Translations under genes and position numbers: made by a program
The notes under the pieces: model-generated
The model's database searches: none
The model's input: the letters and a program-made list of their open reading frames with translations, nothing else
Told to the model about the DNA's origin: nothing
NCBI GenBank assembly: GCA_020027635.1
Contig: JAHKKL010000001.1
Span: forward strand, 1 to 36,528
DNA from: Gammaproteobacteria bacterium
GTDB lineage: Bacteria; Pseudomonadota; Gammaproteobacteria; UBA9214
Direction of reading: 5' to 3'
DNA length: 36,528 nt
In this document: piece by piece, positions 226 through 33,511 of the stretch
Layout of the letters: each line of letters begins with the position of its first letter
Position numbering within the stretch: the first letter of the stretch is position 1

Positions 226-273
226 CAGTTGTTGCGCTGGCAATCGCCTGCTACGTTGAATTCAGGGGGGGCT

Positions 274-783
274 ATGGGTGTTGACGAGATCCTGGATGAC
301 ATTCTGCGGCGCGAGGGCGGATACGTCGATGATCCGGCCGACGCCGGTGGCGCGACCAAGTACGGGATCACGCAGGCCACGTTGTCGGACTGGCGTGGCA
401 AGGCCGTGACCAAGGCCGAGGTGGCGGCACTGAGTTCGCTGGAAGCCCGCCAGATCTACACCCAACGCTATATCGCCCCGTTTGCGCCCGCCGGCCCCCT
501 TCACGGCGCCCTGCTGGGCCTGATCGTGGATTGTGCGGTCAATCACAGTGTCGGACGCGCCATCCAGTGGCTGCAGGGCGCTGCCGGCGCGGTCGCCGAC
601 GGCCAACTGGGCCCGAAATCGAAAGCCGCCATTCAGGCGGCGCCATGGCGCGCGCTGTATGTCCGCGTGCTCGCCACCCGGATCCGGTTCTATGGTCTGC
701 TGATCACGGGCAAGCCGAGCCAGGCCCGGTTCGCGGCCGGTTGGGCGAAACGGGCCGCCGAGTTCCTCGGGGTGTTGCAGTGA
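274..783 (+). CDS. GH108-type lysozyme (endolysin) with C-terminal peptidoglycan-binding-like domain
   Basis: The N-terminal REGGYVDDPADAGGATKYGIT matches the glycoside hydrolase family 108 signature (EGGY..DP.D.GG.T.YGIT). The C-terminal ADGQLGPKSKAAI resembles PG_binding_3. ATG 274 is preferred over TTG 229 because GH108 proteins start about 10 aa before the EGGY motif. Confidence 0.85.
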   Translation: MGVDEILDDILRREGGYVDDPADAGGATKYGITQATLSDWRGKAVTKAEVAALSSLEARQIYTQRYIAPFAPAGPLHGALLGLIVDCAVNHSVGRAIQWLQGAAGAVADGQLGPKSKAAIQAAPWRALYVRVLATRIRFYGLLITGKPSQARFAAGWAKRAAEFLGVLQ

Positions 784-865: not shown

Positions 866-1147
866 ATGAACGCCGACGATCATGAGCGCCGATATGTCCT
901 GCATTGCCTGTGGATCGGGCTGGGGCTTCTCCTCCTGCTCCTGTCCCATAATCTGTCGGCGGAGCCCGACGATCCCCTGGATGGCGCCGGATTGACCCTG
1001 CAAGAGGATATGCACACCCAGATCCTGACCCGCGCGCAGGCCGATGGTGAGACCATTCCGAGCGAGGATCTGCGGATGTGGTGCCGGCCGGCGGGTCGCG
1101 GGATGATCTGCGTCCCGGCCCCGGATGCGCTGGCGCAGAAAAAGTAA
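866..1147 (+). CDS. small membrane-anchored protein in lysis cassette (function unknown)
   Basis: 93-aa ORF with one strongly hydrophobic segment (LWIGLGLLLLLLS) after a charged N-terminus. It sits between the endolysin and the holin-like gene. The start at ATG 866 was chosen inside track ORF 821-1147. Confidence 0.5.
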   Translation: MNADDHERRYVLHCLWIGLGLLLLLLSHNLSAEPDDPLDGAGLTLQEDMHTQILTRAQADGETIPSEDLRMWCRPAGRGMICVPAPDALAQKK

Positions 1148-1194: not shown

Positions 1195-1404
1195 ATGTTT
1201 CTCGATGGCATGAAGACGTACCTGGCGGGCGGTGGCCTGATGCTGACCGGCGCCGCCAAAGTGATTGAGGCGGCGCTGCCGCTACTCAGTGGCGGCGGTG
1301 TCGATGGGGCCGCGCTGAACGAGGGGTGGACCATGGTGATGGCCGGGCTCGCGATCTTTGGCGTCGGCCACAAGCTCGACAAGGCCAAGGGAGGTGGCAA
1401 GTGA
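1195..1404 (+). CDS. holin-like small membrane protein
   Basis: 69 aa with two hydrophobic Gly/Ala-rich segments and a Lys-rich C-terminus (KLDKAKGGGK). AGGAGA lies 7 nt upstream of the ATG. Located in the lysis cassette. Confidence 0.6.
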   Translation: MFLDGMKTYLAGGGLMLTGAAKVIEAALPLLSGGGVDGAALNEGWTMVMAGLAIFGVGHKLDKAKGGGK

Positions 1405-1865
1405 CGCCGCGCGCCGTTCGTTGGAGTGCGCTGGCCATGATCCTGGCCCTGATCACTGGCTGCGCCAGTCTGGGGTACGAGAAGGCGACTGATCCGTCCC
1501 ATGGCGTCGCCTATGCCCGAGCCGAGCTGACCACCAGCTATGAGGTCATTGCGCATCTGGTGGCCACCGGCGACATGAAACCGGCGAGTCGTGACACGGC
1601 GGTGGCCAAGGTCGATCAGGCATCGCGTCTGATCGATGCGGCGGAGATCGCCGCCGAGGCGACCACGCGGGCCAGCCCGCAGGATGTCGCCGCCGAGGTC
1701 ATGAAGTGGGTGCAGAACAGCTACTTTGCCTGGTCGCGCGCGAACGAAAACACCAAGTTCGTCAGCAACCTGATTGCGCTCGACCAAGGGGCGAAGCTGA
1801 ATGTCGATCAGGTGGCGATGGTCAAGATGCGGATGGAAGCCGCGCGCGCCGAGGCGCTGAGGTAG
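1401..1865 (+). CDS. predicted lipoprotein (lysis-cassette associated)
   Basis: The GTG start overlaps the holin stop (GTGA), with GGGAGG upstream. The signal peptide has an LITGC lipobox (RAVRWSALAMILALITG|C). The remainder is helical and Ala-rich. Confidence 0.6.
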   Translation: MTPRAVRWSALAMILALITGCASLGYEKATDPSHGVAYARAELTTSYEVIAHLVATGDMKPASRDTAVAKVDQASRLIDAAEIAAEATTRASPQDVAAEVMKWVQNSYFAWSRANENTKFVSNLIALDQGAKLNVDQVAMVKMRMEAARAEALR

Positions 1866-1866: not shown

Positions 1867-2127
1867 GTGAGCATCGGGATGCTGGGGGCGCTGGGGATCG
1901 GCGCCCTCGCATTGGTGATGGTGCTCCTCGGACGGTTCGCCCTTACCCGCCAGCATAGGGCGGGTGAGCAGCAGGGCATGGCCGAGGCGTTGCAGGACGT
2001 GGCCGCCGCCGAGCAGGCCCGCATCCAGGCTGGCCTGAAGGGCGCTCAGGAGGCCGCCAGCGCGGCGACCGAGCTGACGGATGCGCAGGCCGTGGAGCTT
2101 GCCACGCGAGCCCCCAAGCGCAAATGA
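1867..2127 (+). CDS. i-spanin-like protein (N-terminal TM + coiled-coil periplasmic part)
   Basis: 86 aa with an N-terminal TM segment (IGMLGALGIGALALVMVLLG) followed by an Ala/Glu/Gln-rich helix. It lies immediately upstream of, and ATGA-coupled to, a small Cys-rich lipoprotein. Confidence 0.55.
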   Translation: MSIGMLGALGIGALALVMVLLGRFALTRQHRAGEQQGMAEALQDVAAAEQARIQAGLKGAQEAASAATELTDAQAVELATRAPKRK

Positions 2128-2384
2128 GACTGACTGTCTTCACCCTGGTGAGCATGTATCTGGCGATGGCCATCGTACTGTCCGGGTGCGCACCGCAGAT
2201 CGTGCGGGTGCCGGTGGACTCCCGCTGCCAGACGCAGGAGGCCGTCATCCTGACCGTGGACGAGGGGCTGGCAACGCCGCGCAGCGTGCTCGACAAGCTG
2301 AACACGAGCAATTGCGCACTGTGGAAGGCATGCCCGGACATGTACGAGTTGCCGGCATCGTGTGTGGGCAAGGGGGCGCAATGA
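2124..2384 (+). CDS. o-spanin-like outer-membrane lipoprotein
   Basis: 86 aa with lipobox VLSG|C and four further Cys in the mature part, as is typical of o-spanins. ATGA overlap with the upstream i-spanin-like gene (separated two-component architecture). Confidence 0.6.
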   Translation: MRLTVFTLVSMYLAMAIVLSGCAPQIVRVPVDSRCQTQEAVILTVDEGLATPRSVLDKLNTSNCALWKACPDMYELPASCVGKGAQ

Positions 2385-2512
2385 GCGGTCAACCCATCAA
2401 TATCAGCAGGTTGGTCAAGTGGGCGCTGATCGCCATACTCGCGGCGATGGCGGTCGGTGTCGGACTGTGGGCGCTGATCGCCAATTTCCTGCATCGGATA
2501 ATGGGCGGCTGA
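2381..2512 (+). CDS. 43-aa single-TM protein
   Basis: The ATG overlaps the o-spanin stop (ATGA). Hydrophobic core WALIAILAAMAVGVGLWALIANFL. Below the length cut-off of the track as a separate ORF; it lies inside track ORF 2081-2512. Confidence 0.4.
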   Translation: MSGQPINISRLVKWALIAILAAMAVGVGLWALIANFLHRIMGG

Positions 2513-2513: not shown

Positions 2514-3422
2514 ATGGGCGATCACGGCGATTGGCCGAACCGTAATGGCCACAGTGGGCTCGGCTGGGGCGTGCTCTGTCTCGCCGTGTTCCTGGTCGTG
2601 CTACTGGCGTTGCTGGCCGGGTGCAGCAGCAAGCCTCCGGTCGTGGAGGCACCGCCCTCGCTGCCACCGGTGACACCCCCCACGACCGAGCCATCCCCGC
2701 CCGTGAACGAGTGCCGGGCGACGGCCAATTCGTACCGGCTGATGACCACGCTGGGGATGTTCGAGCGCCTGCCGCGGATCGTGGGCGGCACGGACGCCAC
2801 GACCGAGCAGTACCCATGGATGGTGGCGATCACGACCCCGTTCGGCTTCCAGTTCTGCGGGGGCTCGCTGATTGACCCGGCGCACGTACTGACCGCGGCG
2901 CACTGCAAGGTGAGCCCCGGCGACAATGTGATCATCGGGCGGACCCGGCTGAGCAACAGCGCTCAGGGCGTGCGGGTGGCGGTGGGAAAAGCCGTGACCC
3001 ATGCCGACTACAACCCGACCTATAACCTGTATGACGCATCGCTGGTGACGCTGGATCAGCCGGTGCCCTACCAGCCGGTGCAGATTGGGGCGGCGCAGAC
3101 AGGTAACGTCACCGCCATCGGATGGGGACTCCTCCACCAGGGTGATACTGCGACCAGTGACACCCTGCAGCAGGTCACGATCCCGATTGTGCCAGCGGCC
3201 GAGTGTGCCGAGGCCTATCGCTACATTTGGGACGATGTGCAGATGTGCGCCGGGACAGCGGGTCACGATAGCTGTCAGGGCGACTCCGGCGGGCCGCTCA
3301 TCTACCAGGGCAAACAAGTCGGGATCACCTCATTCGGGGCCGGCTGCGCACAGCCTGGTTACCCTGGCGTCTACCAGCGCACCGCGCCGCTCATGGACTG
3401 GATCGAGGCATGCACTCGCTGA
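2514..3422 (+). CDS. lipoprotein-anchored trypsin-like serine protease (S1 family) zymogen
   Basis: Lipobox LLAG|C. Activation-type site PR|IVGG. Catalytic His in LTAAHC, Asp in YDASLVTL, Ser in CQGDSGGPL. The Asp189 equivalent (HDSCQGDSGGP) predicts Arg/Lys specificity. SFGAGCAQPGYPGVY matches the S1 C-terminal motif, and the canonical Cys pairs are present. Confidence 0.9.
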   Translation: MGDHGDWPNRNGHSGLGWGVLCLAVFLVVLLALLAGCSSKPPVVEAPPSLPPVTPPTTEPSPPVNECRATANSYRLMTTLGMFERLPRIVGGTDATTEQYPWMVAITTPFGFQFCGGSLIDPAHVLTAAHCKVSPGDNVIIGRTRLSNSAQGVRVAVGKAVTHADYNPTYNLYDASLVTLDQPVPYQPVQIGAAQTGNVTAIGWGLLHQGDTATSDTLQQVTIPIVPAAECAEAYRYIWDDVQMCAGTAGHDSCQGDSGGPLIYQGKQVGITSFGAGCAQPGYPGVYQRTAPLMDWIEACTR

Positions 3423-3877
3423 CGCCCGAGGATCTGGCCGAGCTGGCGGCCGAGCTGAAACGCCAGCTCTCCGAGGATGCGACCAGCGAGACTCAGACAT
3501 TCCACCGGAAACTGCGCAACTACATCGGCGGTGGCGTACTGCTGGCGATCGCCGGTGGCAATGGGAGCAACGTGGCCGAGTGGGTGGGGCTGGTCAATGG
3601 CCGAGGGAACGAGCACGAGATCACGCAGGGACTGGAGGAGACGAGCAAGGCGCTGGACTCGATCACGGCGAGTCTCGGGACCATCAAGGAGACCCAAGCC
3701 GACGCCAAGTATCAGATCGCCGATCTCGTGCGTCGGTTGGAGTCGCTGGAGCGCACCAGGGAGTATCAGCGACTGGGCCGGACCGGCGGGAGTCCGCCGG
3801 GTGCGAGCATGAGTGCGCCGCTCATCGAGGAGCGGGCGACCGCCTTGGGGCCATCCGTGGCCCGTCCTGATTCATGA
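3410..3877 (+). CDS. hypothetical protein with short hydrophobic segment and coiled-coil C-terminal half
   Basis: 155-aa ORF overlapping the protease stop by 13 nt, with ordinary protein-like composition. LEETSKALDSITASLGTIKETQADAKYQIADLVRRLESLE is heptad-like. No enzymatic motif. Confidence 0.55.
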   Translation: MHSLTPEDLAELAAELKRQLSEDATSETQTFHRKLRNYIGGGVLLAIAGGNGSNVAEWVGLVNGRGNEHEITQGLEETSKALDSITASLGTIKETQADAKYQIADLVRRLESLERTREYQRLGRTGGSPPGASMSAPLIEERATALGPSVARPDS

Positions 3878-4060
3878 GGTGCAGAGGAGCCGCATCAGCC
3901 TGATGATCGGCTCCGGCACTGGCCTGGCCGTCTCCGAGCCGCGCCGGGCCCGGTAGGACCGGATGGTGGTCTCGGCCACGCCGAGCGCCGCCGCTGCTTG
4001 CGCCCACGTCCATCCCGCCTCGTCCATGAGGCGGAGGAATTCGGGGTGGTGATCAGTCAT
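3872..4060 (-). CDS. small HTH DNA-binding protein (Cro/XRE/Aca-like)
   Basis: 62 aa. WTWAQAAAALGVAETTIRSYR is a classic helix-turn-helix. The start at ATG 4060 overlaps the stop of the upstream 63-aa gene by 8 nt. Confidence 0.7.
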   Translation of the reverse strand: MTDHHPEFLRLMDEAGWTWAQAAAALGVAETTIRSYRARRGSETARPVPEPIIRLMRLLCTS

Positions 4061-4244
4061 CGGCACGGTACTGCTCGATGACGAACCCATCCGGGTGCCA
4101 GACCTCTGTCTGGACGGGGGCGCCGCCCGCCGGGCGGCCGTAGCGGGCCCGCAGGATCGACATCAGTTCCTGCACCTGCGAGTCGTCCTCGCTGTCATAC
4201 AACTCGACCTCGGCCTGGTTGAGAGTGTAGGTATGCATCGTCAT
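4053..4244 (-). CDS. small acidic hypothetical protein (63 aa)
   Basis: AGGAG lies 9 nt upstream of ATG 4244. Acidic stretch ELYDSEDDSQVQE. Translationally coupled to the downstream HTH gene. Confidence 0.6.
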   Translation of the reverse strand: MTMHTYTLNQAEVELYDSEDDSQVQELMSILRARYGRPAGGAPVQTEVWHPDGFVIEQYRADD

Positions 4245-4292: not shown

Positions 4293-4320
4293 AGTGTAGC
4301 ATACCATACAGCGTATGCAA
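4293..4320 (-). promoter_or_regulatory. sigma70-like promoter candidate with embedded inverted repeat (operator candidate)
   Basis: The minus strand reads TTGCAT-N16-TACACT (-35 at 4315-4320, -10 at 4293-4298). The inverted repeat GCATAC-N8-GTATGC (4299-4318) fills the spacer. Direct repeat ATACAG at 4289-4294 and 4306-4311. Confidence 0.35.
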
Positions 4321-4330
4321 ATAGGACAAA

Positions 4331-4531
4331 CTAGTATTTTCCATCCCGCCGCATCAAACGGGACTGTGCCTTGGCCATGCCCTCGACATGGGCGGCGCTG
4401 GCGATCAGGTCCACAATCGACTCGATCTCCAGGATCTGATCCGGTTCCAGGGCCTGCCCGCTCCTGCGAGCGAGCAACTGCAGGTAATACACCAGCAGCT
4501 GCTTGGCCGCGTTGCGTTGGCTACTCATCAT
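4331..4531 (-). CDS. hypothetical protein (66 aa)
   Basis: This is the C-terminal part of track ORF 4331-4696. The start is moved to ATG 4531 because the upstream part of that frame is Ser/Pro/Trp/Cys-rich and overlaps the better-looking ORF 4521-4718. The remainder is helical (AAKQLLVYYLQLLARRSGQALEPDQILEIESIVDLIASAAH). Confidence 0.5.
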   Translation of the reverse strand: MMSSQRNAAKQLLVYYLQLLARRSGQALEPDQILEIESIVDLIASAAHVEGMAKAQSRLMRRDGKY

Positions 4532-4718
4532 CTGGGCTGATCCCGCAGTCGGCCTGCTCGACGAAGAACACCACCCCGCCATCCCACCAGAGGGTGCGCT
4601 CCACGTCGCGCCCATCTCGCTGCAGGCCGGGGCGGGAGCGGATCTCGTACCAGGTATGCGGGGGCACCACCAGGTCATTGGCAAATACAGCTGCATGCTG
4701 TCGGTAGACCGAGGTCAT
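4521..4718 (-). CDS. hypothetical protein (65 aa)
   Basis: Protein-like composition. Its ATG overlaps the stop of the upstream 54-aa ORF (ATGA). Confidence 0.5.
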   Translation of the reverse strand: MTSVYRQHAAVFANDLVVPPHTWYEIRSRPGLQRDGRDVERTLWWDGGVVFFVEQADCGISPDDE

Positions 4719-4879
4719 GGCGTGGCCTCCTGCTCGGGCTCGCAGGCCGGCGCCATGGCCGCCTGCAGGGTCGTGGGCGCCTCCTGGCGCTGGCAGTGCA
4801 TGGGATGGGCGATGCCCGGATCGGTGGGCGTCCCAGCGCCGATCAGGGCTGCGGCGAAGATCTGAATGAATGTCTGCAT
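4715..4879 (-). CDS. hypothetical protein (54 aa; not in ORF track because <60 aa)
   Basis: Hand translation gives MQTFIQIFAAALIGAGTPTDPGIAHPMHCQRQEAPTTLQAAMAPACEPEQEATP. GGAG lies 7 nt upstream of ATG 4879. The stop overlaps the next ATG (ATGA). The hydrophobic N-terminus looks signal-like. Confidence 0.4.
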   Translation of the reverse strand: MQTFIQIFAAALIGAGTPTDPGIAHPMHCQRQEAPTTLQAAMAPACEPEQEATP

Positions 4880-4909
4880 GGTTGACTCCTACATGATCGC
4901 ACCCTCTAT

Positions 4910-5164
4910 CTAATATAGGTTTGTGCGCTGCAACGGCAGCGCCCCTGGCTCGACCGGCTCACTATCCAGAGACTGGCAATACCGGTACGCCGGCCCGCCG
5001 CGATACACGCGCGAGTCGATGTTTTTGAAAAAGTCACGAGCGGCCAGCCCGGACCGAGATATTGCCGTGTACATGTACATCCAGTCCTGCGGCCGCTCCA
5101 GGGTGCCAGCGGCAATGGCGCGCTCGAACGCGTGGGTGGAATCGACAAAGGTCAGTGTGCTCAT
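4910..5164 (-). CDS. hypothetical protein (84 aa)
   Basis: GGGAG lies 6 nt upstream of ATG 5164. Globular-looking composition. First gene of the minus-strand small-gene block. Confidence 0.6.
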   Translation of the reverse strand: MSTLTFVDSTHAFERAIAAGTLERPQDWMYMYTAISRSGLAARDFFKNIDSRVYRGGPAYRYCQSLDSEPVEPGALPLQRTNLY

Positions 5165-5185
5165 GGTGTGCTCCCATCGAAATGT

Positions 5186-5213
5186 ACTGTAGTCGATGCA
5201 GACACCGTGCCAA
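5186..5213 (-). promoter_or_regulatory. sigma70-like promoter candidate for the minus-strand small-gene block
   Basis: The minus strand reads TTGGCA-N16-TACAGT (-35 at 5208-5213, -10 at 5186-5191), about 20 nt upstream of ATG 5164. Same architecture as the 4293-4320 candidate. Confidence 0.35.
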
Positions 5214-5265
5214 CGCCAGGGCTATCAGAAACACAACACGATTCAGTAAGTGAGTACTAACAATC

Positions 5266-5293
5266 CTGACAAATCTCGGCACATCGCTGACAA
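5266..5293. repeat. direct repeat CTGACAA x2, 21 bp apart
   Basis: CTGACAA at 5266-5272 and 5287-5293, in an AT-richer part of the intergenic region. A nearby palindrome GTGAC-N7-GTCAC lies at 5308-5324. Confidence 0.6.
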
Positions 5294-5569
5294 TCAACGG
5301 CAGGAAAGTGACAGAGAGCGTCACATCACACAAGGAATGGAATAAGTGAGGTAAGGTATATGAAAAAACGGTATAGAGTATCGGACAAGCTAGTTTGCAA
5401 CTATACATAACCCCCTGAAACATAACGAACGAACCGACAGAAGGTACTTGACGAATTCTGCGATGGAGTGCGATAGAGGGGGTAGGGGGAGTGAATAGAT
5501 GTGTCCCTGCTGTACCCAGGTCCAGTACCCCATCCAGCCATGCTCCCGAGTCACACCCTGTCCGTACTG

Positions 5570-5598
5570 GACCGAGAGTGACCGAGCGATGGACCGAG
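5570..5598. repeat. iteron-like GACCGAG x3
   Basis: GACCGAG starts at 5570, 5580 and 5592, a spacing of 10 and 12 bp (about one helical turn). Confidence 0.7.
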
Positions 5599-5644
5599 TG
5601 GGGTTGGGAGTGGGCTGGGGAGTGGGCTGGGGAGTGTACGGGGA
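5597..5644 (+). repeat. tandem 12-nt G-rich repeat (AGTGGGSTGGGG), about 4 units
   Basis: Units at 5597-5608 (AGTGGGGTTGGG), 5609-5620 and 5621-5632 (both AGTGGGCTGGGG, identical), and 5633 onward (degenerate). Eight G-runs of 3 or more lie between 5600 and 5649. Confidence 0.85.
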
Positions 5645-5776
5645 TGGGGTTGTCAGCCTCCTCCCCCATCCTGCACTGCAGCAATCCAGTCCAATCCCAT
5701 GGTCCCCTGGTCTTGATCAGGTCTGATCCTGAGTCAGGTACGGTTCCCACTCCAGAGTCAGAGACGAGCCTAAGTC

Positions 5777-5808
5777 ATTGATTGGATTGGGATTGGGACT
5801 GGACCTGG
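5777..5808 (+). repeat. short tandem (G)ATTGG/GACTGG/ACCTGG repeat
   Basis: The sequence reads ATTG ATTGG ATTGG GATTGG GACTGG ACCTGG. It is followed by further G-tracts (GGGATGGGTGGGTTGG at 5823-5838). Confidence 0.7.
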
Positions 5809-5981
5809 TGAGCGAGTGCAGCGGGATGGGTGGGTTGGTTTCCATGGGTCGAGGGTGAGCTGGATGGGGTCTACCATCAGCCCGATACCACCCAAAATTT
5901 CCGCAGTTGAGTCGAGTTCGAGGTACACACCGGTCATGGTCGGGCTTTTGGTGATAGCCATGCATGGGCTAGACTCGATGC

Positions 5982-7751
5982 ATGTTTGATCTCCCTCAGT
6001 TCCTGGATTTCACCAAGTCGTTGTTGATCGACTCCAAGGAGGTCGGAAGGATCTATCTCGGGACCAAGCTCTATGATGGGCAGAAATACCTGCTGAACCA
6101 GATTGATAAAGGGATCAAGGAGGGGATCCATACCTACGTGGTGTTGAAGGGGAGGCAGGAAGGGATCAGCACCATCATGTGGGCGCTGGATCTGTACTGG
6201 GGGTTTGCCAATCCTGGGACGCAAGCGACGCTGGTGGTGGACAAGGACGAGAACCGGGATCTGATGCGGGGCACGATTACGACTTGGCTGAAGCACCTGC
6301 CGCCGCAGTGGTCGATACCGGTGGTCAAGCACAATCGCACCGAGGTCGCGTTCCGTAATCGCTCGCGGATGAGTTATCAGGTCGCCGGCGTCAGGAAGGG
6401 CGGCAATCTCTCCCGCGGTCAGGCCATCAACTATGGGCACTTCACCGAGACCGGTTCGTGGGTGGATCCGGAGGGGTTGGCCTCGCTGCAGGCATCCTTG
6501 GCCGAGACCAATCCACGGCGGCTGTATGTCTACGAGTCCACAGCCAAGGGCTACAATATGTTCAAGGATCTGTGGGACACGGCCAAGGCCTCGCATGGGC
6601 AGAAGGCGCTGTTCATTGCCTGGTGGCTGAAGAACACCTACCGCATTGCCCCCGACAAGCAGCCGCGGTTGTGGAAGGCCTACGGCAAGGCGCAGCCGAA
6701 CATGCAGGAGCGGGCCTGGATCAGGGAAGTGAAGGCGCTCTACAAGTATGACATCGACGGTCAGCAGATGGCCTGGTATCGCTGGAAGCTGGCGGAGGAG
6801 ATCAGGGACGAGATCATGATGAACCAGGAATATCCCTGCACCGAGCAGCAGGCGTTCGTTGCCACTGGCACCAATTATTTCGATCTGAAGGCCCTGAACG
6901 ACATGCTGAAGGCTTCGAGGCTGTTGACGCCAGAGCCATGGCAATTTCATTTCGGGCAGAAGTTCGCTGATATCCAGATGCGGGAAGGAAATCTGAAGAA
7001 CTGCGAGCTGAAGATCTGGCAGTGGCCGGTGGAGGGGGGCTGGTACACGATTGGCGTCGATCCGGCCTATGGCTATTCCCCCGACAACGATCACCACTGC
7101 GTACAGGTCATGCGCTGCTATGCCGATGGACTGGAGCAGGTGGCGGAATTCTGCTCTGGCTCGCTCTCTACCCACCAGCTCGCCTGGGTGGCGGTCTATC
7201 TGGCTGGCGCCTACTCGGGGCGAGCCGGGCGCTGCATGATGAATCTGGAGGTAACTGGGCCCGGACAGGCGGTGCTGAACGAGATCCTAGCGATGCGCCG
7301 GTACAGCGAGCTTGCCGGTGGGCTGCCGAAGGCCTGGCAGGATGTGGCCGGCTACATTCGCAGTTACCTCAGCCGGCGGCTGGACAATCCGCGCCCCGGT
7401 GGCGGGTTCATTCACTCGAAATCCACGCACGACTACAAGGAACGGATGATGGGCTCGCTCGCTGACTGCGTGAGCAAGCGGATCATCGACATTCGCAGCG
7501 AGGAGGCGATCCGGGAGGCGCAGAACATCGTCCGTGACGAAGGGATCATCAAGACTCCGCAGAAGAAACGAGACGATCGGGTGATCGCCATCGCGCTGGC
7601 GACACTGGCCTGGCACGAGCAGATGCGCGTCTATTGCGCCGCCGATCAGGCCACCCGCGCCAAGGCCCATGTCGTCGAAGCGCACGAAAGCCCGATGGTC
7701 TTCGACACCCAGTTGCGCCAGTACCTGCGCAGTGTCGGGGCACTGCAGTGA
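5982..7751 (+). CDS. terL: terminase large subunit
   Basis: 589 aa. VLKGRQEGIST resembles the terminase Walker A-type K(G/S)RQxGxS/T motif, and YVYESTAKG resembles the ATPase coupling region. The size, the position at the head of the morphogenesis operon, and the C-terminal nuclease-sized domain all fit. Confidence 0.8.
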   Translation: MFDLPQFLDFTKSLLIDSKEVGRIYLGTKLYDGQKYLLNQIDKGIKEGIHTYVVLKGRQEGISTIMWALDLYWGFANPGTQATLVVDKDENRDLMRGTITTWLKHLPPQWSIPVVKHNRTEVAFRNRSRMSYQVAGVRKGGNLSRGQAINYGHFTETGSWVDPEGLASLQASLAETNPRRLYVYESTAKGYNMFKDLWDTAKASHGQKALFIAWWLKNTYRIAPDKQPRLWKAYGKAQPNMQERAWIREVKALYKYDIDGQQMAWYRWKLAEEIRDEIMMNQEYPCTEQQAFVATGTNYFDLKALNDMLKASRLLTPEPWQFHFGQKFADIQMREGNLKNCELKIWQWPVEGGWYTIGVDPAYGYSPDNDHHCVQVMRCYADGLEQVAEFCSGSLSTHQLAWVAVYLAGAYSGRAGRCMMNLEVTGPGQAVLNEILAMRRYSELAGGLPKAWQDVAGYIRSYLSRRLDNPRPGGGFIHSKSTHDYKERMMGSLADCVSKRIIDIRSEEAIREAQNIVRDEGIIKTPQKKRDDRVIAIALATLAWHEQMRVYCAADQATRAKAHVVEAHESPMVFDTQLRQYLRSVGALQ

Positions 7752-29525: not shown

Positions 29526-29715
29526 CGGCTCCCCCGAAGAAACCACGGCGACCACCCGCCAGCCGAACCCGCCCAGGGGTGGGCGGACAATGCCGAAGCT
29601 TGGATTTACCCCTCGATTCGACACCAGCGGGACCGGACTGAATGTGCGCTCGCCGAGCCCCGACAAGACGGACTGGCCCTGCCAGAAGAACCCGATCAAG
29701 GCCGACGATTACTGA
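29512..29715 (+). CDS. hypothetical Pro/Thr/Gly-rich protein (67 aa)
   Basis: Strong AGGAGG lies 7 nt upstream of the ATG. Disordered-looking. The 3' end overlaps the convergent AsnB-like gene by 7 nt. Confidence 0.5.
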   Translation: MKPINGSPEETTATTRQPNPPRGGRTMPKLGFTPRFDTSGTGLNVRSPSPDKTDWPCQKNPIKADDY

Positions 29716-31229
29716 GGTCTTTCCCCTTCGATCCAGACTCGGTGCCAGGCATTGAAGTAGGCCAGTGACCAGTTCAGTAGTCGGCGTCGGTTGCCGGTTG
29801 TGGCCATTGTCTGGATCCATGCGTCGTCGTTCAGATATGACCATACCGGATCGGCGCGATCGGGCGGAAACCACCAGGTATCATCTGTGCAAAATCCCTG
29901 CTTGGGCTTGGTCGCCAGATCCGGGACCAGCCCATCGATCTCCTCGCGCATCCAGTCCTTGCGCCCAGTGCGCAGCGAAAACGGGATCCGGATCGCCTGA
30001 TCGACAAAGGCATTGCTGAGGAACGGGACCCGCGCCTCCAGTGAATGGGCCATGCTCACCTTGTCTTCGATCACCAGTAACGAGTGCAGGAATGTCCGGG
30101 CCTCGAACTCCCAGTCATTGACCGTATCGGAATAAATGCTCCGCAGGCGTTCGAGGGCGACAGACTGGTTCAACACCGGCGGCAGGCGGGTCCAGATCTG
30201 AGCCCGATCCTTGCCGTAGCGCCAGGGGTAGCCCCCGAACAACTCATCCCCACCGGTACCGGCCATGACGACCCGGCCGAACCGCGAAGCAAGGGCGGCC
30301 GCATACCAGTTCGGGTAGGAGGGCCCAAGCCGGGGCTCCTCGAGGTGCCAGGCGAGAGACGGCAGGCAGTCGCGGGCCATCTGCGGCGTCACAATCGCCT
30401 CGTAATGCGCCGTATTGAGCGCGGCAGCCAGGGCCTCGGCATCCGCCCGCTCATCCCCGCCGGTGAAGCCCACGGAGAACGTGGTAAGCCCTGTGGGCAT
30501 GCGCTTGGCAATCATGGCCGAGTCCAGCCCGCCGGACAGGTAACAGCCCGGCGCAAAATCCCCGCGCAACTGGCTTTTGACGGCCTGCGTGAAATCCGGG
30601 ATCGCTTCCCCGCCGTCCAGAAAATTCCAGGACCAATACTCTCTCTGAACTATGTTCAGACTCTCATCGATGATCAGCGCCGTCCCCGGCCGGACCATGT
30701 GGACGCCCCTGAACAGGGTTGTCGCCGGATCGAGATAGTTCTGAAAGGTGAAGTATTCCTCCAGCGCCTCCTGATCGACATCGGCCCTGAATCTGGGGTG
30801 GGCCAGGAATGCCTTGATCTCGGAGGCGAACAGAAAGTCCCGTCCGATCCGCGTGTAGTAGAGGGGCTTGATCCCGTAGCGATCCCGTATCAGCATCAAC
30901 GTCCGGGACTCGTACTCGTAATGGGCAATCGCGAACATGCCGTCCCATTCCTCTCGCAAATGGTAGCCGCGCAAAATCCAGGACGCCTCGCTGACGCCCG
31001 CCGGACAGTTGTATATCTCGCCCGCCAGCGCCAGCATGCCGTAACCATCCGATACCGGTTGCGCATGATCTCCATTGATGGCCAGCCGCACATGCCCGAT
31101 ACAACAGCCATCCTTCTGCTGATATTGCAGATCATCGGGACCACGGTGATGGATCTTGTCCAGCATTTCGCGGACCAAGCGGCTCCTGTCCCCGCCAAAG
31201 GCGCTGAAGACGCCAGCTATCCCGCACAT
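29709..31229 (-). CDS. asparagine synthetase-family glutamine amidotransferase (AsnB-like)
   Basis: 506 aa. The N-terminal MCGIAG supplies the Cys2 nucleophile of class-II (Ntn) amidotransferases. SGGLDS is the PP-loop ATP pyrophosphatase motif. Confidence 0.85.
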   Translation of the reverse strand: MCGIAGVFSAFGGDRSRLVREMLDKIHHRGPDDLQYQQKDGCCIGHVRLAINGDHAQPVSDGYGMLALAGEIYNCPAGVSEASWILRGYHLREEWDGMFAIAHYEYESRTLMLIRDRYGIKPLYYTRIGRDFLFASEIKAFLAHPRFRADVDQEALEEYFTFQNYLDPATTLFRGVHMVRPGTALIIDESLNIVQREYWSWNFLDGGEAIPDFTQAVKSQLRGDFAPGCYLSGGLDSAMIAKRMPTGLTTFSVGFTGGDERADAEALAAALNTAHYEAIVTPQMARDCLPSLAWHLEEPRLGPSYPNWYAAALASRFGRVVMAGTGGDELFGGYPWRYGKDRAQIWTRLPPVLNQSVALERLRSIYSDTVNDWEFEARTFLHSLLVIEDKVSMAHSLEARVPFLSNAFVDQAIRIPFSLRTGRKDWMREEIDGLVPDLATKPKQGFCTDDTWWFPPDRADPVWSYLNDDAWIQTMATTGNRRRLLNWSLAYFNAWHRVWIEGERPQ

Positions 31230-32053
31230 CGCTGCAATCCCTGTTTCAGATCGATCTCCGCCGTCCAGCCCAGATCGGCGGTTGCCCAGCCCGGATCGCC
31301 GAGCATGTGGGTGATCTGGATCGGGCCATCGACGAACTCCGGCTGACCGATCATGGCCGCCAGATCCTTGATCTTCGTCCCGACTCCCGTACAGATGTTG
31401 TAGAACCCGTGCCCGTGCGTGAGCGCCATGCAGACGGCGCGCGCCGCATCATCGACATGGACGAAGTCGTAGGATTCGCTGCCGGAACCATAGACGGGCA
31501 GAGGTTTGCCCTCGCGCGCCAGACGCAGGAACTTCGGGATCACCGCTTCATAACCCTTCAGCACCGCGTTGCCGTACACGGACTGGAAACGCAGTCCGAC
31601 GAAGTCGAGCCCATGCTGCAATTGCAGGACATGTTCGGCCACGATCTTCAGTCGCGCATAGTCGGAGGTGCCGAACAATGGCGCAGTCTCGGAGATTGGG
31701 CCTGACTGTTCGCCATAGACACTGCCGGAGGAGGCATAGACGAGTTTGACCCGGTTGTAGGCGCAAAGCTCTGCAATAAATCGCAACAGATTGATCATTG
31801 TGTACCATGCCCATAACGGGCGCTGCGCACAGTCGAACACGGGCAATGCCGCAAGAAAGATGACGCCGGTAATGATGACGCCGGTAATATCGTCTTTTTC
31901 AGCAGCCTCAACAGATGGATAGATCTTCGTCCCCGCCGGCAAATTATCTGGACTTCCTCGACTCAGATCATCGACCACGATACATCGCTTGGGGCCCAGC
32001 CGTTTCACGACATGGCTGCCGATCAGCCCCGCCCCGCCAATGATCAGGATCAT
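31217..32053 (-). CDS. NAD-dependent sugar epimerase/dehydratase (extended SDR)
   Basis: Start moved to ATG 32053 (GAAGGAGGAGAG RBS). IIGGAGLIGSHV is a Rossmann GxxGxxG motif. YASSGSVYG and the catalytic YARLK (YxxxK) are present. Confidence 0.8.
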   Translation of the reverse strand: MILIIGGAGLIGSHVVKRLGPKRCIVVDDLSRGSPDNLPAGTKIYPSVEAAEKDDITGVIITGVIFLAALPVFDCAQRPLWAWYTMINLLRFIAELCAYNRVKLVYASSGSVYGEQSGPISETAPLFGTSDYARLKIVAEHVLQLQHGLDFVGLRFQSVYGNAVLKGYEAVIPKFLRLAREGKPLPVYGSGSESYDFVHVDDAARAVCMALTHGHGFYNICTGVGTKIKDLAAMIGQPEFVDGPIQITHMLGDPGWATADLGWTAEIDLKQGLQRCAG

Positions 32054-32265
32054 CTCTCCTCCTTCTTGCCGAATTTGAGCTTCAGATAATTGCCGCGCTG
32101 GCCGACATTGCGCCAGCCGGAAATGAACAGCTCGTCCGTATTCCCGCACGCCTCGCAGACATGATTCCCAGAACCGATATAGTCGGGCTGGCGATCCTCG
32201 CGCTTGGCCTTGTTCGGGAACAGGATCCCGGTATCGGGCAGATATTCGCGCTTTTCCTCCGTCAT
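32050..32265 (-). CDS. small hypothetical protein (71 aa), pattern reminiscent of DUF736-type proteins
   Basis: GILFPNKAKREDRQPDYIGS ... ISGWRNVGQRGNYLKLKF resembles the (N.K....PDY.G ... W.K....G..YLSLK) pattern. ATGA overlaps at both ends. The assignment is tentative. Confidence 0.4.
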   Translation of the reverse strand: MTEEKREYLPDTGILFPNKAKREDRQPDYIGSGNHVCEACGNTDELFISGWRNVGQRGNYLKLKFGKKEER

Positions 32266-32666
32266 AGTGGCCGGGCCGGGTTGCCGATCACCTTCGCGCC
32301 GCGCTCGATATCAGCGGTCACGACCGCCCCGGCGCCAATCAGCGCACCCTCGCCGATCATCACCCCGGCGACGATCACCGCCCCGGCACCGATACTGACC
32401 TTGTCTCGAACGGTGGTATGCCAGATGTGGTCCGATGGCGGGTACCGATCATTGGTGAAGGTCACCGATGGCCCAATGAAACAGTCATCGCCGATCGTCA
32501 CCCCGGAAGGGATATAGGCGCCCGCCTGGATCTTGCAGCGATGACCGATCTTCACATCATGACCGATCCAGACGTGGGAATGAATGACGCACTCATCCCC
32601 GCAGACGAACTCCAGCAGGATAGATAGGTGTGGATGCCAGATCCGGGTATTGCGCCCGATCTTCAT
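32262..32666 (-). CDS. hexapeptide-repeat (left-handed beta-helix) sugar acyl/acetyltransferase
   Basis: 134 aa with repeated [LIV]G..... hexads (IGHDVKIGHRCKIQAGAYIPSGVTIGDDCFIGPSVTF ... IGAGAVIVAGVMIGEGALIGAGAVV). TFTNDRYP is as found in amino-sugar N-acetyltransferases. Confidence 0.8.
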   Translation of the reverse strand: MKIGRNTRIWHPHLSILLEFVCGDECVIHSHVWIGHDVKIGHRCKIQAGAYIPSGVTIGDDCFIGPSVTFTNDRYPPSDHIWHTTVRDKVSIGAGAVIVAGVMIGEGALIGAGAVVTADIERGAKVIGNPARPL

Positions 32667-33511
32667 GTCAGTGCCCCCTTCATGTCTTCCAGTCCATCAC
32701 GGAACCCGAACGCTGCCTTGAACCCAAGCATACGTTCGGCCTTGCTGCAGTCGAAAAAGAACCTGTCCGGATCCACCGTGCGCTGCTCGCGCATGGCAAT
32801 CTGGCCACGGTAACCGAACACATCGCAGATTATCTCCGCCGCCTTCTGGGTCGTGATCTCCTCGCCGGTGCCGATGTTGTAGATCTGATTCCATGCATCA
32901 TGCGGGGCATTGAGCGCCAGCACGTTGGCGTTCGCCACGTCCTTGATGTAGCAGAAGTCATTGCTCTGCTTGCCGCCATACAGGGTCGGTTGCAGATCAT
33001 GGGCGATCCGATCAAGAAATCCCCCAACCAGGCCGTGGTGGCGCTTTTCGTTACCATACAGGTGCGCGTAACGGAGCACTATCCATGGTGTGCGCATGCG
33101 CCGCACGTACAGCTCGCCCGCATACTTGCTACAGCCATAGACCGAATTCCCGCAGGCCTTGAACTCCTCGGTGATCGGTGGCGTTGCCTCGATTGGCATG
33201 TAGACCGAGCCGGTCGATGCATAGACCAGTGGCACGCAGTATCGCTCGGCAAGCATCGCAACGTTGCGGGTACCGAGTACATTGATCTCGATACAGCGCA
33301 TCGGATCGGCGTCGGCTTCGGCAAAGCGGGCAATCGCCGCTAGATGCAGGATCCGGGAATTCGGGCCCAGCCGCTGGATCGCCTTCTCCAGTTTCGTCTC
33401 GTCACGGATATCGTCCCCATCCATGATATCGAATGTGACCCAGGACGCGTCCAGATACTTCATTGTCGCCGCGCCGACGAACCCATGCGCACCCGTGATC
33501 AAGCAGCTCAT
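32663..33511 (-). CDS. NAD-dependent sugar epimerase/dehydratase (extended SDR)
   Basis: 282 aa. ITGAHGFVGA, YASTGSVY, the catalytic YGCSK (YxxxK), and RYAHLYG. Confidence 0.8.
   Translation of the reverse strand: MSCLITGAHGFVGAATMKYLDASWVTFDIMDGDDIRDETKLEKAIQRLGPNSRILHLAAIARFAEADADPMRCIEINVLGTRNVAMLAERYCVPLVYASTGSVYMPIEATPPITEEFKACGNSVYGCSKYAGELYVRRMRTPWIVLRYAHLYGNEKRHHGLVGGFLDRIAHDLQPTLYGGKQSNDFCYIKDVANANVLALNAPHDAWNQIYNIGTGEEITTQKAAEIICDVFGYRGQIAMREQRTVDPDRFFFDCSKAERMLGFKAAFGFRDGLEDMKGALT

What the first reader, a model, noticed from the sequence alone, without database searches (positions are those of the whole stretch)
2514..3422. Lipid-anchored, trypsin-specificity S1 protease zymogen at the end of a phage lysis cassette
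All hallmarks of a eukaryote-like trypsin are present: the R|IVGG activation junction, TAAHC, Asp in YDASLVTL, Asp189-type pocket residue and GDSGGP, and three canonical disulfide pairs. They are fused behind a lipoprotein signal (LLAG|C) and a Pro-rich linker. The gene starts 1 nt after a 43-aa TM ORF that is itself ATGA-coupled to the o-spanin-like gene, so it is co-expressed with the lysis genes. The activation site follows Arg, which fits autoactivation. Possible roles include cleaving envelope proteins (for example Lpp or OmpA-type tethers) to assist lysis, processing a phage or host surface protein, superinfection exclusion, or acting on neighbouring cells after release.
Basis: partly seen in the sequence, partly recalled or inferred. 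Interest (0 to 1): 0.65.

Follow-up and report, generated by a model that had tools for sequence, protein, structure and literature searches.

The report
Lipid-anchored trypsin in phage lysis cassette
A bacteriophage carries, wired into its cell-bursting gene set, a membrane-tethered trypsin-type protease made as an inactive precursor; related phages keep the same arrangement, which points to a possible protease step in how phages break open Gram-negative cells, though no experiment has tested it.

Summary
ORF 2514..3422 (+) encodes a 302-aa S1A protease (Pfam Trypsin E=2.6e-52). It has the catalytic triad, trypsin pocket residues, an R88|I89VGG activation junction, three canonical disulfides, an LAG|C37 lipobox and a 38%-Pro stalk.

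The gene lies in an unbroken string of coupled genes: holin-like, lipoprotein, i-spanin-like, o-spanin-like, TM43, trypsin, orf3410. This string sits downstream of a GH108 endolysin and upstream of the large terminase.

New findings:
- Two more Cys (C67 in the pro-region, C300 at the C-terminus) are invariant in the family. They probably form a fourth disulfide that keeps the activated domain tied to the lipid-anchored stalk.
- In other phage contigs, relatives sit beside four other wall-hydrolase types (Amidase_2, GH24, Peptidase_M15_4, a PG_binding_1 protein) or a holin.
- In one contig the module from holin to trypsin is shared while the endolysin and terminase are not.
- Cultured phages lack an equivalent (1 weak hit in 50,697 records, not in a lysis cassette). 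There is no matching PHROG family and no paper was found.
- Chromosomal bacterial relatives with the same architecture exist.

Function is inferred, not shown. The best guess (about 0.4) is a lysis accessory that cuts envelope proteins. Rivals are receptor destruction or exclusion, a cargo gene, and processing of lysis proteins.

The parts
229..783 (+). Endolysin (GH108 muramidase domain plus PG_binding_3)
   Evidence: Pfam PF05838 E=7.7e-20 and PF09374 E=1.8e-8. PHROG 315 endolysin E=4.6e-35. NCBIfam holin-associated N-acetylmuramidase, below cut-off.
866..1147 (+). Small membrane protein with one hydrophobic segment; function unknown
   Evidence: ORF and sequence. No family hit.
1195..1404 (+). 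Holin-like 69-aa protein with two hydrophobic segments, preceded by an AGGAGA ribosome-binding site
   Evidence: Sequence. 71% identical to the 68-aa ORF in the same position in L001. No family hit, so 'holin' rests on size, topology and position.
1401..1865 (+). Orphan lipoprotein (lipobox LITG|C). Its GTG start overlaps the holin stop as GTGA.
   Evidence: Sequence. 71-77% identical to the L001 counterpart, which is its only homologue in 5.8 billion proteins.
1867..2127 (+). i-spanin-like protein: N-terminal TM segment followed by a charged helical region
   Evidence: Sequence. 49% identical to the L001 counterpart. No PHROG or Pfam spanin hit.
2124..2384 (+). o-spanin-like lipoprotein (lipobox LSG|C). 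It overlaps both neighbours as ATGA.
   Evidence: Sequence. 49% identical to the L001 counterpart, which also has a lipobox.
2381..2512 (+). 43-aa single-TM ORF; absent from L001
   Evidence: Sequence. In L001 the o-spanin-like gene overlaps the trypsin gene directly.
2514..2624 (+). Trypsin gene, signal peptide: N-terminal extension, hydrophobic core, and lipobox L-A-G-C37
   Evidence: C37 is invariant in 24/24 relatives. AF2 helix at aa 16-34.
2625..2711 (+). Pro-rich stalk, aa 38-66 (11 of 29 Pro)
   Evidence: Relatives have stalks of 14-51 aa, mostly 35-55% Pro (3-55% over all rows).
2712..2777 (+). Pro-segment from C67 to R88, ending in the activation site LPR|IVGG
   Evidence: C67 is invariant. 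AF2 pLDDT is 89 for aa 61-70, with a strand at 69-71. The activation loop aa 84-87 has pLDDT below 50. P1 is R or K in 24/24.
2778..3422 (+). S1A catalytic domain I89-R302 with stop codon. Contains H130, D174, S258, D252 (D189), three canonical disulfides and the C-terminal C300.
3410..3877 (+). Downstream ORF overlapping the trypsin gene by 13 nt. It has a weak hydrophobic segment and a coiled-coil-like tail; function unknown.
   Evidence: Weak 27% match to an L001 ORF. No family hit.
5982..7751 (+). Large terminase; marks the start of the packaging and structural module
   Evidence: PHROG 2 terminase large subunit E=1.8e-12. Homologues are about 45% identical, many on roughly 36-40 kb metagenomic contigs.

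Best explanation
Shown (molecular identity). The gene encodes a phage-borne S1A trypsin-type protease made as a pre-pro-lipoprotein. The parts in order are:
- a signal peptide with a canonical lipobox (LAG|C37);
- a 29-residue Pro-rich stalk;
- a 22-residue pro-segment that starts at an invariant Cys (C67) and ends at R88|I89VGG;
- a complete catalytic domain with a D189/G216/G226 pocket, ending two residues after another invariant Cys (C300).
The gene is a linked member of the phage's lysis cassette, and this linkage recurs in unrelated phages.

Inferred (mechanism).
1. The protein is made late, together with holin, endolysin and spanins.
2. It is exported by Sec and lipidated on C37. It is anchored in the envelope, most likely the inner leaflet of the outer membrane (Ser at +2).
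3. It accumulates as an inactive zymogen.
4. Cleavage after R88 activates it. Because the enzyme is Arg/Lys-specific, activation can occur in trans and feed on itself, giving an abrupt switch.
5. A C67-C300 disulfide keeps the active domain attached to the lipidated stalk, so the activity stays on the membrane at stalk length from it.
6. There it cuts Arg/Lys sites in envelope proteins, such as OM-peptidoglycan tethers or another protein layer. This helps the endolysin and spanins take the envelope apart. The role would be the protein-cutting counterpart of mycobacteriophage LysB.
For: Identity:
- Pfam Trypsin E=2.6e-52.
- PDB sequence hit to S. erythraea trypsin, with I89 aligned to mature residue 1.
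- AF2 mean pLDDT 83. Foldseek TM 0.89 and rmsd 2.0 A to 4m7g.
- Triad, pocket and Cys positions.

Family architecture:
- 24 relatives share an invariant lipobox Cys, pro-region Cys, IVGG, triad and C-terminal Cys.
- Among the 120 best homologues, 32 have lipobox, pro-Cys and tail-Cys together, and 46 have none of the three.
- The segment around C67 is confidently docked in the model, while the activation loop is disordered.

Operon:
- Stops and starts overlap or abut from holin to orf3410.
- No promoter- or terminator-like site lies near the gene.
- GC3 is 0.82, against 0.77-0.86 in neighbours, 0.81 in TerL and 0.84 in MCP.

Linkage to lysis genes elsewhere:
- L001 shares holin (71%), lipoprotein (71%), both spanin-like genes (49%) and trypsin (64%). 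Its endolysin is Amidase_2 and its terminase is unrelated.
- L005: GH24 lysozyme, three small membrane or lipoprotein ORFs, trypsin, then TerL.
- L131: two-TM ORF, trypsin, Peptidase_M15_4.
- L008: the trypsin lies directly upstream of a PG_binding_1 protein.
- L007: a PHROG holin (E=2e-17) lies two genes upstream.
- L124: the trypsin lies two genes upstream of TerS and TerL.

Established knowledge (from memory, not tested here): S1A zymogens become active when the new Ile16 N-terminus pairs with Asp194. Trypsin releases Braun's lipoprotein from murein.
Against: - No experiment and no substrate is known. A role in lysis rests on gene neighbourhood only.
- The stretch between lysis genes and terminase is also a classic site for cargo genes.
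- Relatives with the same architecture sit in ordinary chromosomal contexts (L126, L127). The protein therefore does not need a phage to be useful.
- The phage already has an endolysin and a spanin-like pair, which in the standard model are enough.
- Between two related phages (TerL 81% identical) the trypsin is only 61% identical and its pocket residue differs (G189 versus D189). Neighbouring lysis-region genes are 78-87% identical. This looks more like a host-interaction protein under diversifying pressure.
- Three relatives keep R|IVGG but lack D189, so autoactivation cannot be universal.
- The n-region of the signal peptide is long and not positively charged. No signal-peptide predictor was run.
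- The C67-C300 bond is inferred. Model coordinates could not be inspected.
Confidence: 0.42

Rival explanations
1. Receptor-destroying or exclusion enzyme. The anchored protease trims the phage's own protein receptor, or other surface proteins. This would block superinfection, or stop new virions from being wasted on cell debris. It would be an enzymatic version of what the lipoproteins T5 Llp and phi80/N15 Cor do by binding FhuA.
For: - It is a phage lipoprotein, the same class as Llp and Cor (from memory).
- In L007, L008 and L019 the gene lies just downstream of tail or tail-fibre-like genes: FG-GAP, BNR/LamG and a minor tail protein. In L009 a GDSL-lipase-like ORF lies upstream.
- It diverges faster than its neighbours and its pocket residue switches between related phages. 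That fits tracking of variable host surface proteins.
Against: - In these genomes tail genes, lysis genes and terminase are simply adjacent, so position does not discriminate.
- A lipoprotein on the periplasmic face would reach only periplasmic parts of a receptor.
- A zymogen made late would come too late for exclusion, though not for debris protection.
- No PADLOC defence or exclusion family matched.
Confidence: 0.2
2. Cargo gene (moron). The phage picked up a bacterial lipoprotein protease that is expressed from the prophage and benefits the lysogen, for example in nutrient acquisition, virulence or competition. It would have no role in the phage cycle.
For: - The interval between lysis genes and terminase is a well-known cargo site in lambdoid phages. 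Lambda bor, itself a lipoprotein, sits there (from memory).
- Chromosomal relatives with identical architecture exist.
- In the rough NJ tree, phage and cellular members are interleaved in one clade.
Against: - No promoter- or terminator-like sites flank the gene.
- Both ends are translationally coupled to neighbours.
- Its composition matches the phage core genes.
- It travels with holin and spanin-like genes as one module into a phage with a different endolysin and terminase.
- In L131 it lies between a holin-like gene and the endolysin, not at the edge of the cassette.
- No integrase or repressor was found in the ORFs scanned, although the contig is incomplete.
Confidence: 0.13
3. Regulatory or processing protease for the phage's own exported lysis proteins. 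It might clip the orphan lipoprotein (1401..1865), the spanin-like pair or TM43 to release or time the last lysis step.
For: - It is tightly coupled to three other exported proteins.
- The orphan lipoprotein co-occurs with the trypsin in the only two lineages that have it.
- A zymogen with positive feedback suits a timing switch (inference).
Against: - Other phage relatives (L005, L131, L007) lack homologues of these partner proteins at BLAST level.
- Chromosomal relatives have no such partners.
Confidence: 0.1
4. Second wall-degrading enzyme. The protease would cut peptidoglycan peptide stems or cross-links after a dibasic residue (Lys or meso-DAP), as some bacteriolytic S1 proteases of Lysobacter do.
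For: - It sits next to endolysins.
- Bacteriolytic S1-family enzymes exist (from memory).
Against: - Those enzymes belong to the alpha-lytic (S1E) branch, not to S1A with a D189 pocket.
- S1A enzymes are not known to accept the D-amino acids that flank the stem-peptide bonds.
- The protein has no wall-binding domain.
Confidence: 0.05

Closest known systems
Actinomycete trypsins (Saccharopolyspora erythraea trypsin, PDB 4m7g/5dj7; Streptomyces griseus trypsin, 1os8)
   Same: - Nearest solved relatives: E=1.6e-44, about 40% identity, Foldseek TM 0.89.
- Same triad, D189 pocket and three disulfides.
- The mature chain starts at IVGG/VVGG.
   Different: - They are soluble secreted enzymes with short propeptides.
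- The aligned mature chains contain neither the pro-region Cys nor the C-terminal Cys, and related actinomycete sequences lack a lipobox and both extra Cys.
- They are chromosomal and not phage-borne.
Vibrio cholerae VesB (trypsin-like zymogen held on the cell surface; from memory)
   Same: A bacterial S1A zymogen, activated by cleavage before IVGG and kept on the envelope by a lipid-type anchor.
   Different: - VesB is anchored at its C-terminus through a GlyGly-CTERM/rhombosortase signal and secreted by the type II system.
- The window protein ends two residues after C300 and has no such tail.
- It would instead be anchored at the N-terminus through a lipobox and stalk.
- VesB is not phage-encoded.
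Mycobacteriophage LysB (mycolylarabinogalactan esterase; from memory)
   Same: It is an accessory enzyme encoded in a lysis cassette, besides holin and endolysin. It cuts the link between the outer membrane and the wall to complete lysis. This is the closest functional analogy for the favoured explanation.
   Different: - LysB is a lipid esterase of a different fold acting on a different bond, in mycolate-containing hosts.
- Its role is shown by experiment. The role proposed here is not.
o-spanins (lambda Rz1 type)
   Same: A phage lipoprotein with a Pro-rich mature N-terminus and a conserved Cys, encoded in the lysis cassette. Residues 24-63 give weak hits to two PHROG 'Rz-like spanin' families (E=7.8e-4 and 5e-3).
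   Different: - The hits are marginal and cover signal peptide plus low-complexity sequence.
- There is no similarity to the adjacent o-spanin-like protein.
- Spanins have no enzymatic domain.
Chymotrypsinogen and type II transmembrane serine proteases (from memory)
   Same: After activation cleavage the pro-peptide stays bound to the catalytic domain by a disulfide, so a membrane-anchored stem keeps hold of the active protease.
   Different: - In those enzymes the partner is Cys122. Here the only free partner is a Cys at the very C-terminus.
- Their anchor is a TM helix in eukaryotic proteins, not a bacterial lipid anchor.
Rhodococcus phage Shagrat gp109 'serine protease'
   Same: The only hit among 50,697 deposited phage genomes (31% identity over the catalytic domain, E=7e-9).
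   Different: It lies among DNA-metabolism genes near the right end of the genome, not in a lysis cassette. The phage infects a Gram-positive actinomycete.

Membership tests
Peptidase family S1A (chymotrypsin/trypsin fold, Pfam PF00089) | Profile match above the curated threshold over the whole domain | tested here: met
   178 bits against a cut-off of 20.6, profile positions 1-220 of 220.
Peptidase family S1A (chymotrypsin/trypsin fold, Pfam PF00089) | Catalytic triad His57-Asp102-Ser195 in order, within the conserved motifs | tested here: met
   H130 (TAAHC), D174 and S258 (GDSGGP). All three are invariant in 24 relatives.
Peptidase family S1A (chymotrypsin/trypsin fold, Pfam PF00089) | Two-barrel trypsin fold | tested here: met
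   AF2 mean pLDDT 83. Foldseek to 4m7g gives TM 0.89, rmsd 2.0 A, E=2e-23.
Peptidase family S1A (chymotrypsin/trypsin fold, Pfam PF00089) | Zymogen activation elements: cleavage site before I16-V-G-G, and Asp194 | tested here: met
   R88|I89VGG and D257 are present. I89 aligns with residue 1 of the mature solved enzyme. The cleavage itself cannot be tested with these tools.
Peptidase family S1A (chymotrypsin/trypsin fold, Pfam PF00089) | Proteolytic activity | not testable with these tools
   Needs recombinant enzyme.
Trypsin-type (Arg/Lys) specificity | Asp189 at the pocket base with Gly216 and Gly226 | tested here: met
   D252, G275 and G285. Three relatives have G, S or A at position 189, each together with G184D.
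Bacterial lipoprotein (signal peptidase II substrate) | Lipobox [LVI][ASTVI][GAS]C at the end of a hydrophobic segment | tested here: met
   L34-A35-G36-C37 follows a 20-residue hydrophobic stretch. The Cys is invariant in 24/24, and a PROSITE-like motif is present in 22/24 relatives.
Bacterial lipoprotein (signal peptidase II substrate) | Positively charged n-region, and Cys within the first ~35 residues (PROSITE PS51257 positional rule, recalled from memory) | tested here: inconclusive
   Cys is at position 37. The n-region has R10 but also D3 and D6. A similar N-terminal extension occurs in P0003 and P0006. No SignalP or LipoP was available.
Phage lysis cassette component | Same transcription unit as endolysin, holin and spanin genes | tested here: met
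   Coupled string from 1195 to 3877, with an endolysin at 229..783. No promoter- or terminator-like sites in between. This is inferred from DNA; no transcript data exist.
Phage lysis cassette component | Linkage to lysis genes conserved in independent phages | tested here: met
   Next to Amidase_2 (L001), GH24 (L005), M15_4 (L131), a PG_binding_1 protein (L008) and a holin PHROG (L007). Module boundaries shown.
Phage lysis cassette component | Loss of the gene impairs lysis | not testable with these tools
   Needs phage genetics.
Two-component spanin (neighbours 1867..2127 and 2124..2384) | An i-spanin with an N-terminal TM segment followed by an adjacent or overlapping lipoprotein gene | tested here: inconclusive
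   The architecture fits, but there is no spanin PHROG or Pfam hit.
o-spanin (for the trypsin N-terminal region) | Significant similarity to spanin families | tested here: not met
   PHROG 456 and 11621 match only at E=7.8e-4 and 5e-3, over signal peptide and Pro-rich sequence. No BLAST similarity to the adjacent o-spanin-like protein.
Moron (autonomous cargo gene) | Own promoter and terminator, and composition unlike the flanks | tested here: not met
   No such sites were found. GC3 is 0.82, equal to neighbours and core genes. Both ends are overlapped by or abut neighbouring genes.
GlyGly-CTERM / rhombosortase-anchored trypsins (VesB type) | C-terminal GlyGly motif, TM helix and basic tail | tested here: not met
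   The protein ends ...WIEAC-T-R.
Anti-phage defence or exclusion systems in PADLOC | Match to a defence-system protein model | tested here: not met
   Only a marginal 11-bit hit to the protease part of Avs1b.

The most novel reading that the evidence does not exclude
Membrane-tethered zymogen proteases would be a previously unrecognised class of phage lysis effector for diderm hosts. In this reading, a lipid-anchored trypsin waits as a zymogen and then switches on autocatalytically. It stays on its Pro-rich stalk through a pro-peptide-to-C-terminus disulfide and cuts the protein links that hold the outer membrane to the wall. In cassettes where no other lipoprotein is visible (for example L131), it might even stand in for spanins.
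Probability: 0.3. Interest if true: 0.8.

Novelty: new variant of a known kind. Interest (0 to 1): 0.62.

Why it matters
The accepted parts list for lysis of Gram-negative hosts is holin, endolysin, and spanin or disruptin. For mycobacteria, the esterase LysB is added. To my knowledge, none of the envelope-breaking enzymes on that list is a protease that acts on proteins rather than on the wall.

If this family acts in lysis, it adds an enzymatic step aimed at envelope proteins. It would also show a zymogen switch being used as a timing device in a virus of bacteria.

If it instead destroys receptors, it would be an enzymatic form of debris protection or exclusion.

In either case, the architecture is a compact, self-tethering way to place a protease at a fixed distance from a membrane. 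It consists of a lipid anchor, a Pro-rich stalk, a disulfide-tethered pro-peptide and a trypsin domain, and it is recorded here in phages and bacteria.

The question is directly testable with one catalytic-site mutant and an Arg/Lys substrate assay.

Tried and rejected
- Prohead or virion maturation protease: rejected. The protein carries an export signal, is S1A, and has no hit to phage protease families.
- Artefact or wrong strand: rejected. The Pfam E-value on the + strand is 2.6e-52, and the minus-strand ORFs across the gene are shadows.
- Fusion of an o-spanin to a protease: not supported.
- Defence-system protein: no PADLOC match.
- Recent foreign insertion: composition is the same as the phage core genes.
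- Near-identical known phage: megablast of window 1-8000 against 50,697 phage records found nothing.
- Host identification failed. There is no tRNA. TerL relatives are all unnamed metagenomic proteins. The only named relative contig is binned in a Planctomycetes MAG, but it looks entirely phage-like.
- The search for the orphan lipoprotein found a single homologue. I therefore could not ask how often the module occurs without the trypsin.
A planned neighbourhood census was dropped.
- phmmer with the three endolysins and four terminases as seeds did not cross-detect between loci. These phages are far apart.
- The C67-C300 distance could not be measured, because model coordinates are not exposed.
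- Four literature searches found no paper on a trypsin-like protease in a phage lysis cassette.
Full report
**1.

ORF 2514..3422 on the + strand starts with ATG and encodes 302 aa. It matches Pfam Trypsin (PF00089) at E=2.6e-52, with 178 bits against a curated cut-off of 20.6. The match covers aa 89-297 and the whole 220-position profile.

The best solved relatives are the trypsin of Saccharopolyspora (Streptomyces) erythraea (4m7g, 5dj7; E about 1e-44). Animal trypsins and chymotrypsin follow at about 1e-33. In the alignment, I89 falls on residue 1 of the mature enzyme.

An AlphaFold2 model built on 24 relatives has mean pLDDT 83. It superposes on 4m7g with TM 0.89 and rmsd 2.0 A.

- H130 in TAAHC, D174 in YDASLVTL, and S258 in GDSGGP
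- D252 (position 189), G275 (216) and G285 (226)
- the pairs C115-C131, C231-C245 and C254-C278
- the lipobox L34-A35-G36-C37
- a linker of 29 residues with 11 Pro
- the junction LPR88|I89VGG

The stated gene coupling is also correct. The o-spanin-like ORF (2124..2384) and a 43-aa TM ORF (2381..2512) overlap as ATGA, and the trypsin ATG follows the latter's stop after one base.

Three corrections apply:
- The gene is not the last of the string, because orf3410 overlaps its end by 13 nt.
- The enzyme is closest to bacterial trypsins, not eukaryotic ones.
- There are two further Cys, described in section 3.

**2. The surroundings**

The window is a phage contig. Evidence:
- a GH108 endolysin with a PG_binding_3 domain at 229..783
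- a large terminase at 5982..7751, a portal, a major head protein, Ig-like structural proteins and tail proteins
- an exonuclease on the minus strand near the right end

No tRNA is present. No deposited phage is similar at the DNA level.

Between the endolysin and the trypsin lie six ORFs:
- a small membrane protein (866..1147)
- a 69-aa protein with two hydrophobic segments behind a strong AGGAGA site (1195..1404, holin-like)
- a 154-aa lipoprotein whose GTG start overlaps the holin stop (1401..1865; LITG|C)
- an 86-aa protein with an N-terminal TM segment and a charged helical tail (1867..2127, i-spanin-like)
- an 86-aa lipoprotein (2124..2384; LSG|C, o-spanin-like)
- the 43-aa TM ORF (2381..2512)

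From 1195 to 3877 no gap exceeds one base. A consensus scan finds no promoter- or terminator-like site on the + strand between 1200 and 5000. The GC3 of the trypsin gene (0.82) equals that of its neighbours (0.77-0.86), TerL (0.81) and the head protein (0.84). I therefore read it as part of the late lysis transcript. This is inferred from DNA only.

**3. A defined protein family with a fourth Cys pair**

The closest homologues in 5.8 billion proteins are unnamed metagenomic sequences at 64% to about 40% identity. Twenty-three of them, aligned with the window protein, share one architecture:
- signal peptide ending in a lipobox
- a stalk of 14-51 residues, mostly 35-55% Pro (3-55% over all 24)
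- a Cys
- 17-27 further residues ending in R or K
- IVGG and the catalytic domain
- a C-terminal W-I/V-x-x-C, followed by 1-22 further residues

Invariant columns include C37, C67, I89-G92, the triad, the six canonical Cys and C300.

Among the 120 best hits, 32 carry lipobox, pro-region Cys and tail Cys together, and 46 carry none of the three. Most exceptions are N-terminally truncated fragments or multidomain animal proteins.

In the model, the segment around C67 is confidently placed (pLDDT 89 for aa 61-70, a short strand at 69-71). The activation loop 84-87 has pLDDT below 50.

My inference is that C67 and C300 form a disulfide. After cleavage at R88|I89, the active domain would then remain joined to the lipidated Pro-rich stalk. 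The principle is that of chymotrypsinogen and of type II transmembrane serine proteases, but with a different partner Cys. I could not measure the distance because coordinates are not exposed.

**4. The linkage to lysis genes recurs in unrelated phages**

*L001* (trypsin 64% identical). The order is Amidase_2 endolysin, a TM ORF, holin-like, lipoprotein, i-spanin-like, o-spanin-like, trypsin, several small ORFs, terminase, portal.
- BLAST shows L001 shares with the window the holin-like gene (71%), the lipoprotein (71%), both spanin-like genes (49%) and the trypsin (64%).
- It does not share the endolysin or the terminase.
- The module from holin to trypsin has therefore moved as one block.

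*L005* (47% identical; binned in a Planctomycetes MAG, but the stretch looks phage-like throughout). The order is GH24 lysozyme, a TM ORF, two lipobox ORFs, trypsin, small ORFs, terminase. L129 is a relative of that phage with the same order.

*L124* (49% identical). The trypsin is two genes upstream of the small and large terminase.

*L131* (41% identical). The order is a two-TM ORF, the trypsin, then a Peptidase_M15_4 endolysin.

*IMG/VR viral contigs* with the same architecture:
- L007: tail-fibre-like gene, a holin PHROG (E=2e-17), a 65-aa ORF, trypsin, exonuclease, terminase, portal.
- L008: tail-fibre-like gene, an ORF, trypsin, a PG_binding_1 protein.
- L010: TM ORF, trypsin, exonuclease, terminase.

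The trypsin thus neighbours five different wall-hydrolase families (GH108, Amidase_2, GH24, M15_4, PG_binding_1-containing) or a holin.

A rough neighbour-joining tree gives three groupings:
- a clade with the window protein in which every member of known context is phage-borne
- a clade made up of IMG/VR viral loci together with context-unknown metagenomic proteins
- a clade that is mostly chromosomal

L126 and L127 sit among ordinary cellular genes.

**5. Rarity among known phages**

tblastn against 50,697 deposited phage genomes finds one hit. It is Rhodococcus phage Shagrat gp109 (31% identity), which lies among DNA-metabolism genes and not in a lysis cassette.

No PHROG family matches the catalytic domain. 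Only two 'Rz-like spanin' families touch the signal peptide and Pro-rich part, at E about 1e-3. That region has no similarity to the adjacent o-spanin-like protein.

In the viral structure library, the named matches are all from viruses of eukaryotes, and no phage is named among them. NCBIfam and PADLOC give nothing useful. Four full-text searches found no paper describing a trypsin-like protease in a phage lysis cassette.

**6. How it most likely works**

Shown: the protein's architecture and its conserved place in lysis cassettes.

Inferred:
1. It is exported and lipidated. Ser at +2 would send it to the outer membrane under the rule known from E. coli, which may not hold in the unknown host.
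2. It accumulates as a zymogen.
3. It is activated after R88. With a D189 pocket and P1 Arg, this enzyme could be cut by its own active form, which would give a self-accelerating switch.
4. It is retained on the stalk through C67-C300.
5. It cleaves envelope proteins at Arg or Lys.

A 29-residue Pro-rich stalk could extend for several nanometres. That would place the domain near the wall layer where OM-wall tethers sit. It is established knowledge that trypsin detaches Braun's lipoprotein from murein. The nearest functional analogy is mycobacteriophage LysB, an accessory lysis enzyme that severs the link between outer membrane and wall.

I put this reading at about 0.4.

**7. What argues otherwise**

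- The same site in phage genomes collects cargo genes.
- Cellular relatives show the protein is useful without a phage.
- An endolysin and a spanin-like pair are already present.
- Between L005 and L129 the terminase is 81% identical and the neighbouring lipoproteins 78-87%. The trypsin is only 61% identical, and its pocket residue differs: G189 with D184 in one, D189 with G184 in the other. Such fast change fits a protein that tracks variable host surface proteins.
- The three relatives without D189 all carry G184D. This may relocate the negative charge, but that is speculation.

Rivals and my weights:
- receptor-destroying or exclusion enzyme, 0.2
- cargo gene, 0.13
- processing protease for co-encoded exported proteins, 0.1
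- wall peptidase, 0.05

**8. Verdict**

The protein is an ordinary member of S1A in its chemistry. What is new is its architecture and its fixed place in phage lysis cassettes, which known phage biology does not list. I rate it a new variant of a known kind, with interest 0.62. Function remains to be shown.

Noticed in passing
window 29709..34110, minus strand: A run of sugar-modification genes lies inside the phage contig, between tail genes and a phage exonuclease. It comprises an asparagine-synthase-like amidotransferase, two NAD-dependent epimerase/dehydratases, a hexapeptide acyltransferase and a DegT-type aminotransferase fragment. Possible roles are surface-polysaccharide conversion of the host or glycosylation of a phage component.
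   Followed up: partly
window 1401..1865 (+): An orphan 154-aa helical lipoprotein lies between the holin-like and i-spanin-like genes. Its only homologue in 5.8 billion proteins is the counterpart in L001 (77% identical), which also carries the trypsin. It could be a partner, regulator or inhibitor of the protease.
   Followed up: partly
homologues P0003, P0005, P0012 (alignment A1): The three family members that lack Asp189 (they have G, S or A) all have Asp in place of Gly184 (CAD instead of CAG). All 21 others have G184 with D189. This may be a relocated pocket charge.
   Followed up: no
L005 versus L129: In two related phages the trypsin is 61% identical, while TerL is 81% and the two upstream lipoprotein or TM genes are 87% and 78%. 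The protease evolves faster than its neighbours.
   Followed up: partly
window 2514..2570; P0003 and P0006 N-termini: An unusual extension precedes the signal-peptide core: MGDHGDWPNRNG... in the window, and MGGGWNNGPVREPWERIKDFCDD... in P0003 and P0006. It is conserved enough to suggest it is translated. Its purpose is unknown.
   Followed up: no
window 4300..5980: A lower-GC stretch (0.55-0.63) without a convincing gene lies between the HTH gene and the terminase. It contains a 12-bp tandem repeat (GAGTGGGCTGGG, 3.4 copies) at 5596..5636. It could hold the packaging site or a regulatory region.
   Followed up: no
window 3872..4244, minus strand: Two small convergent genes follow the lysis string. 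One is a 72-aa HTH protein (HTH_23, E=7.7e-6).
   Followed up: no
window 5982..7751 (+): The large terminase has no Pfam hit, only PHROG 2. Yet it has more than 2000 homologues, at about 45% identity among those listed, many on contigs of roughly 36-40 kb. This points to a large uncultured phage group with genomes about the size of this window.
   Followed up: partly
L131 1058..2461: In this contig the trypsin is the only lipobox ORF among the called genes. It sits between a two-TM ORF and the M15_4 endolysin, and no spanin-like pair is visible in the 6.5 kb.
   Followed up: no
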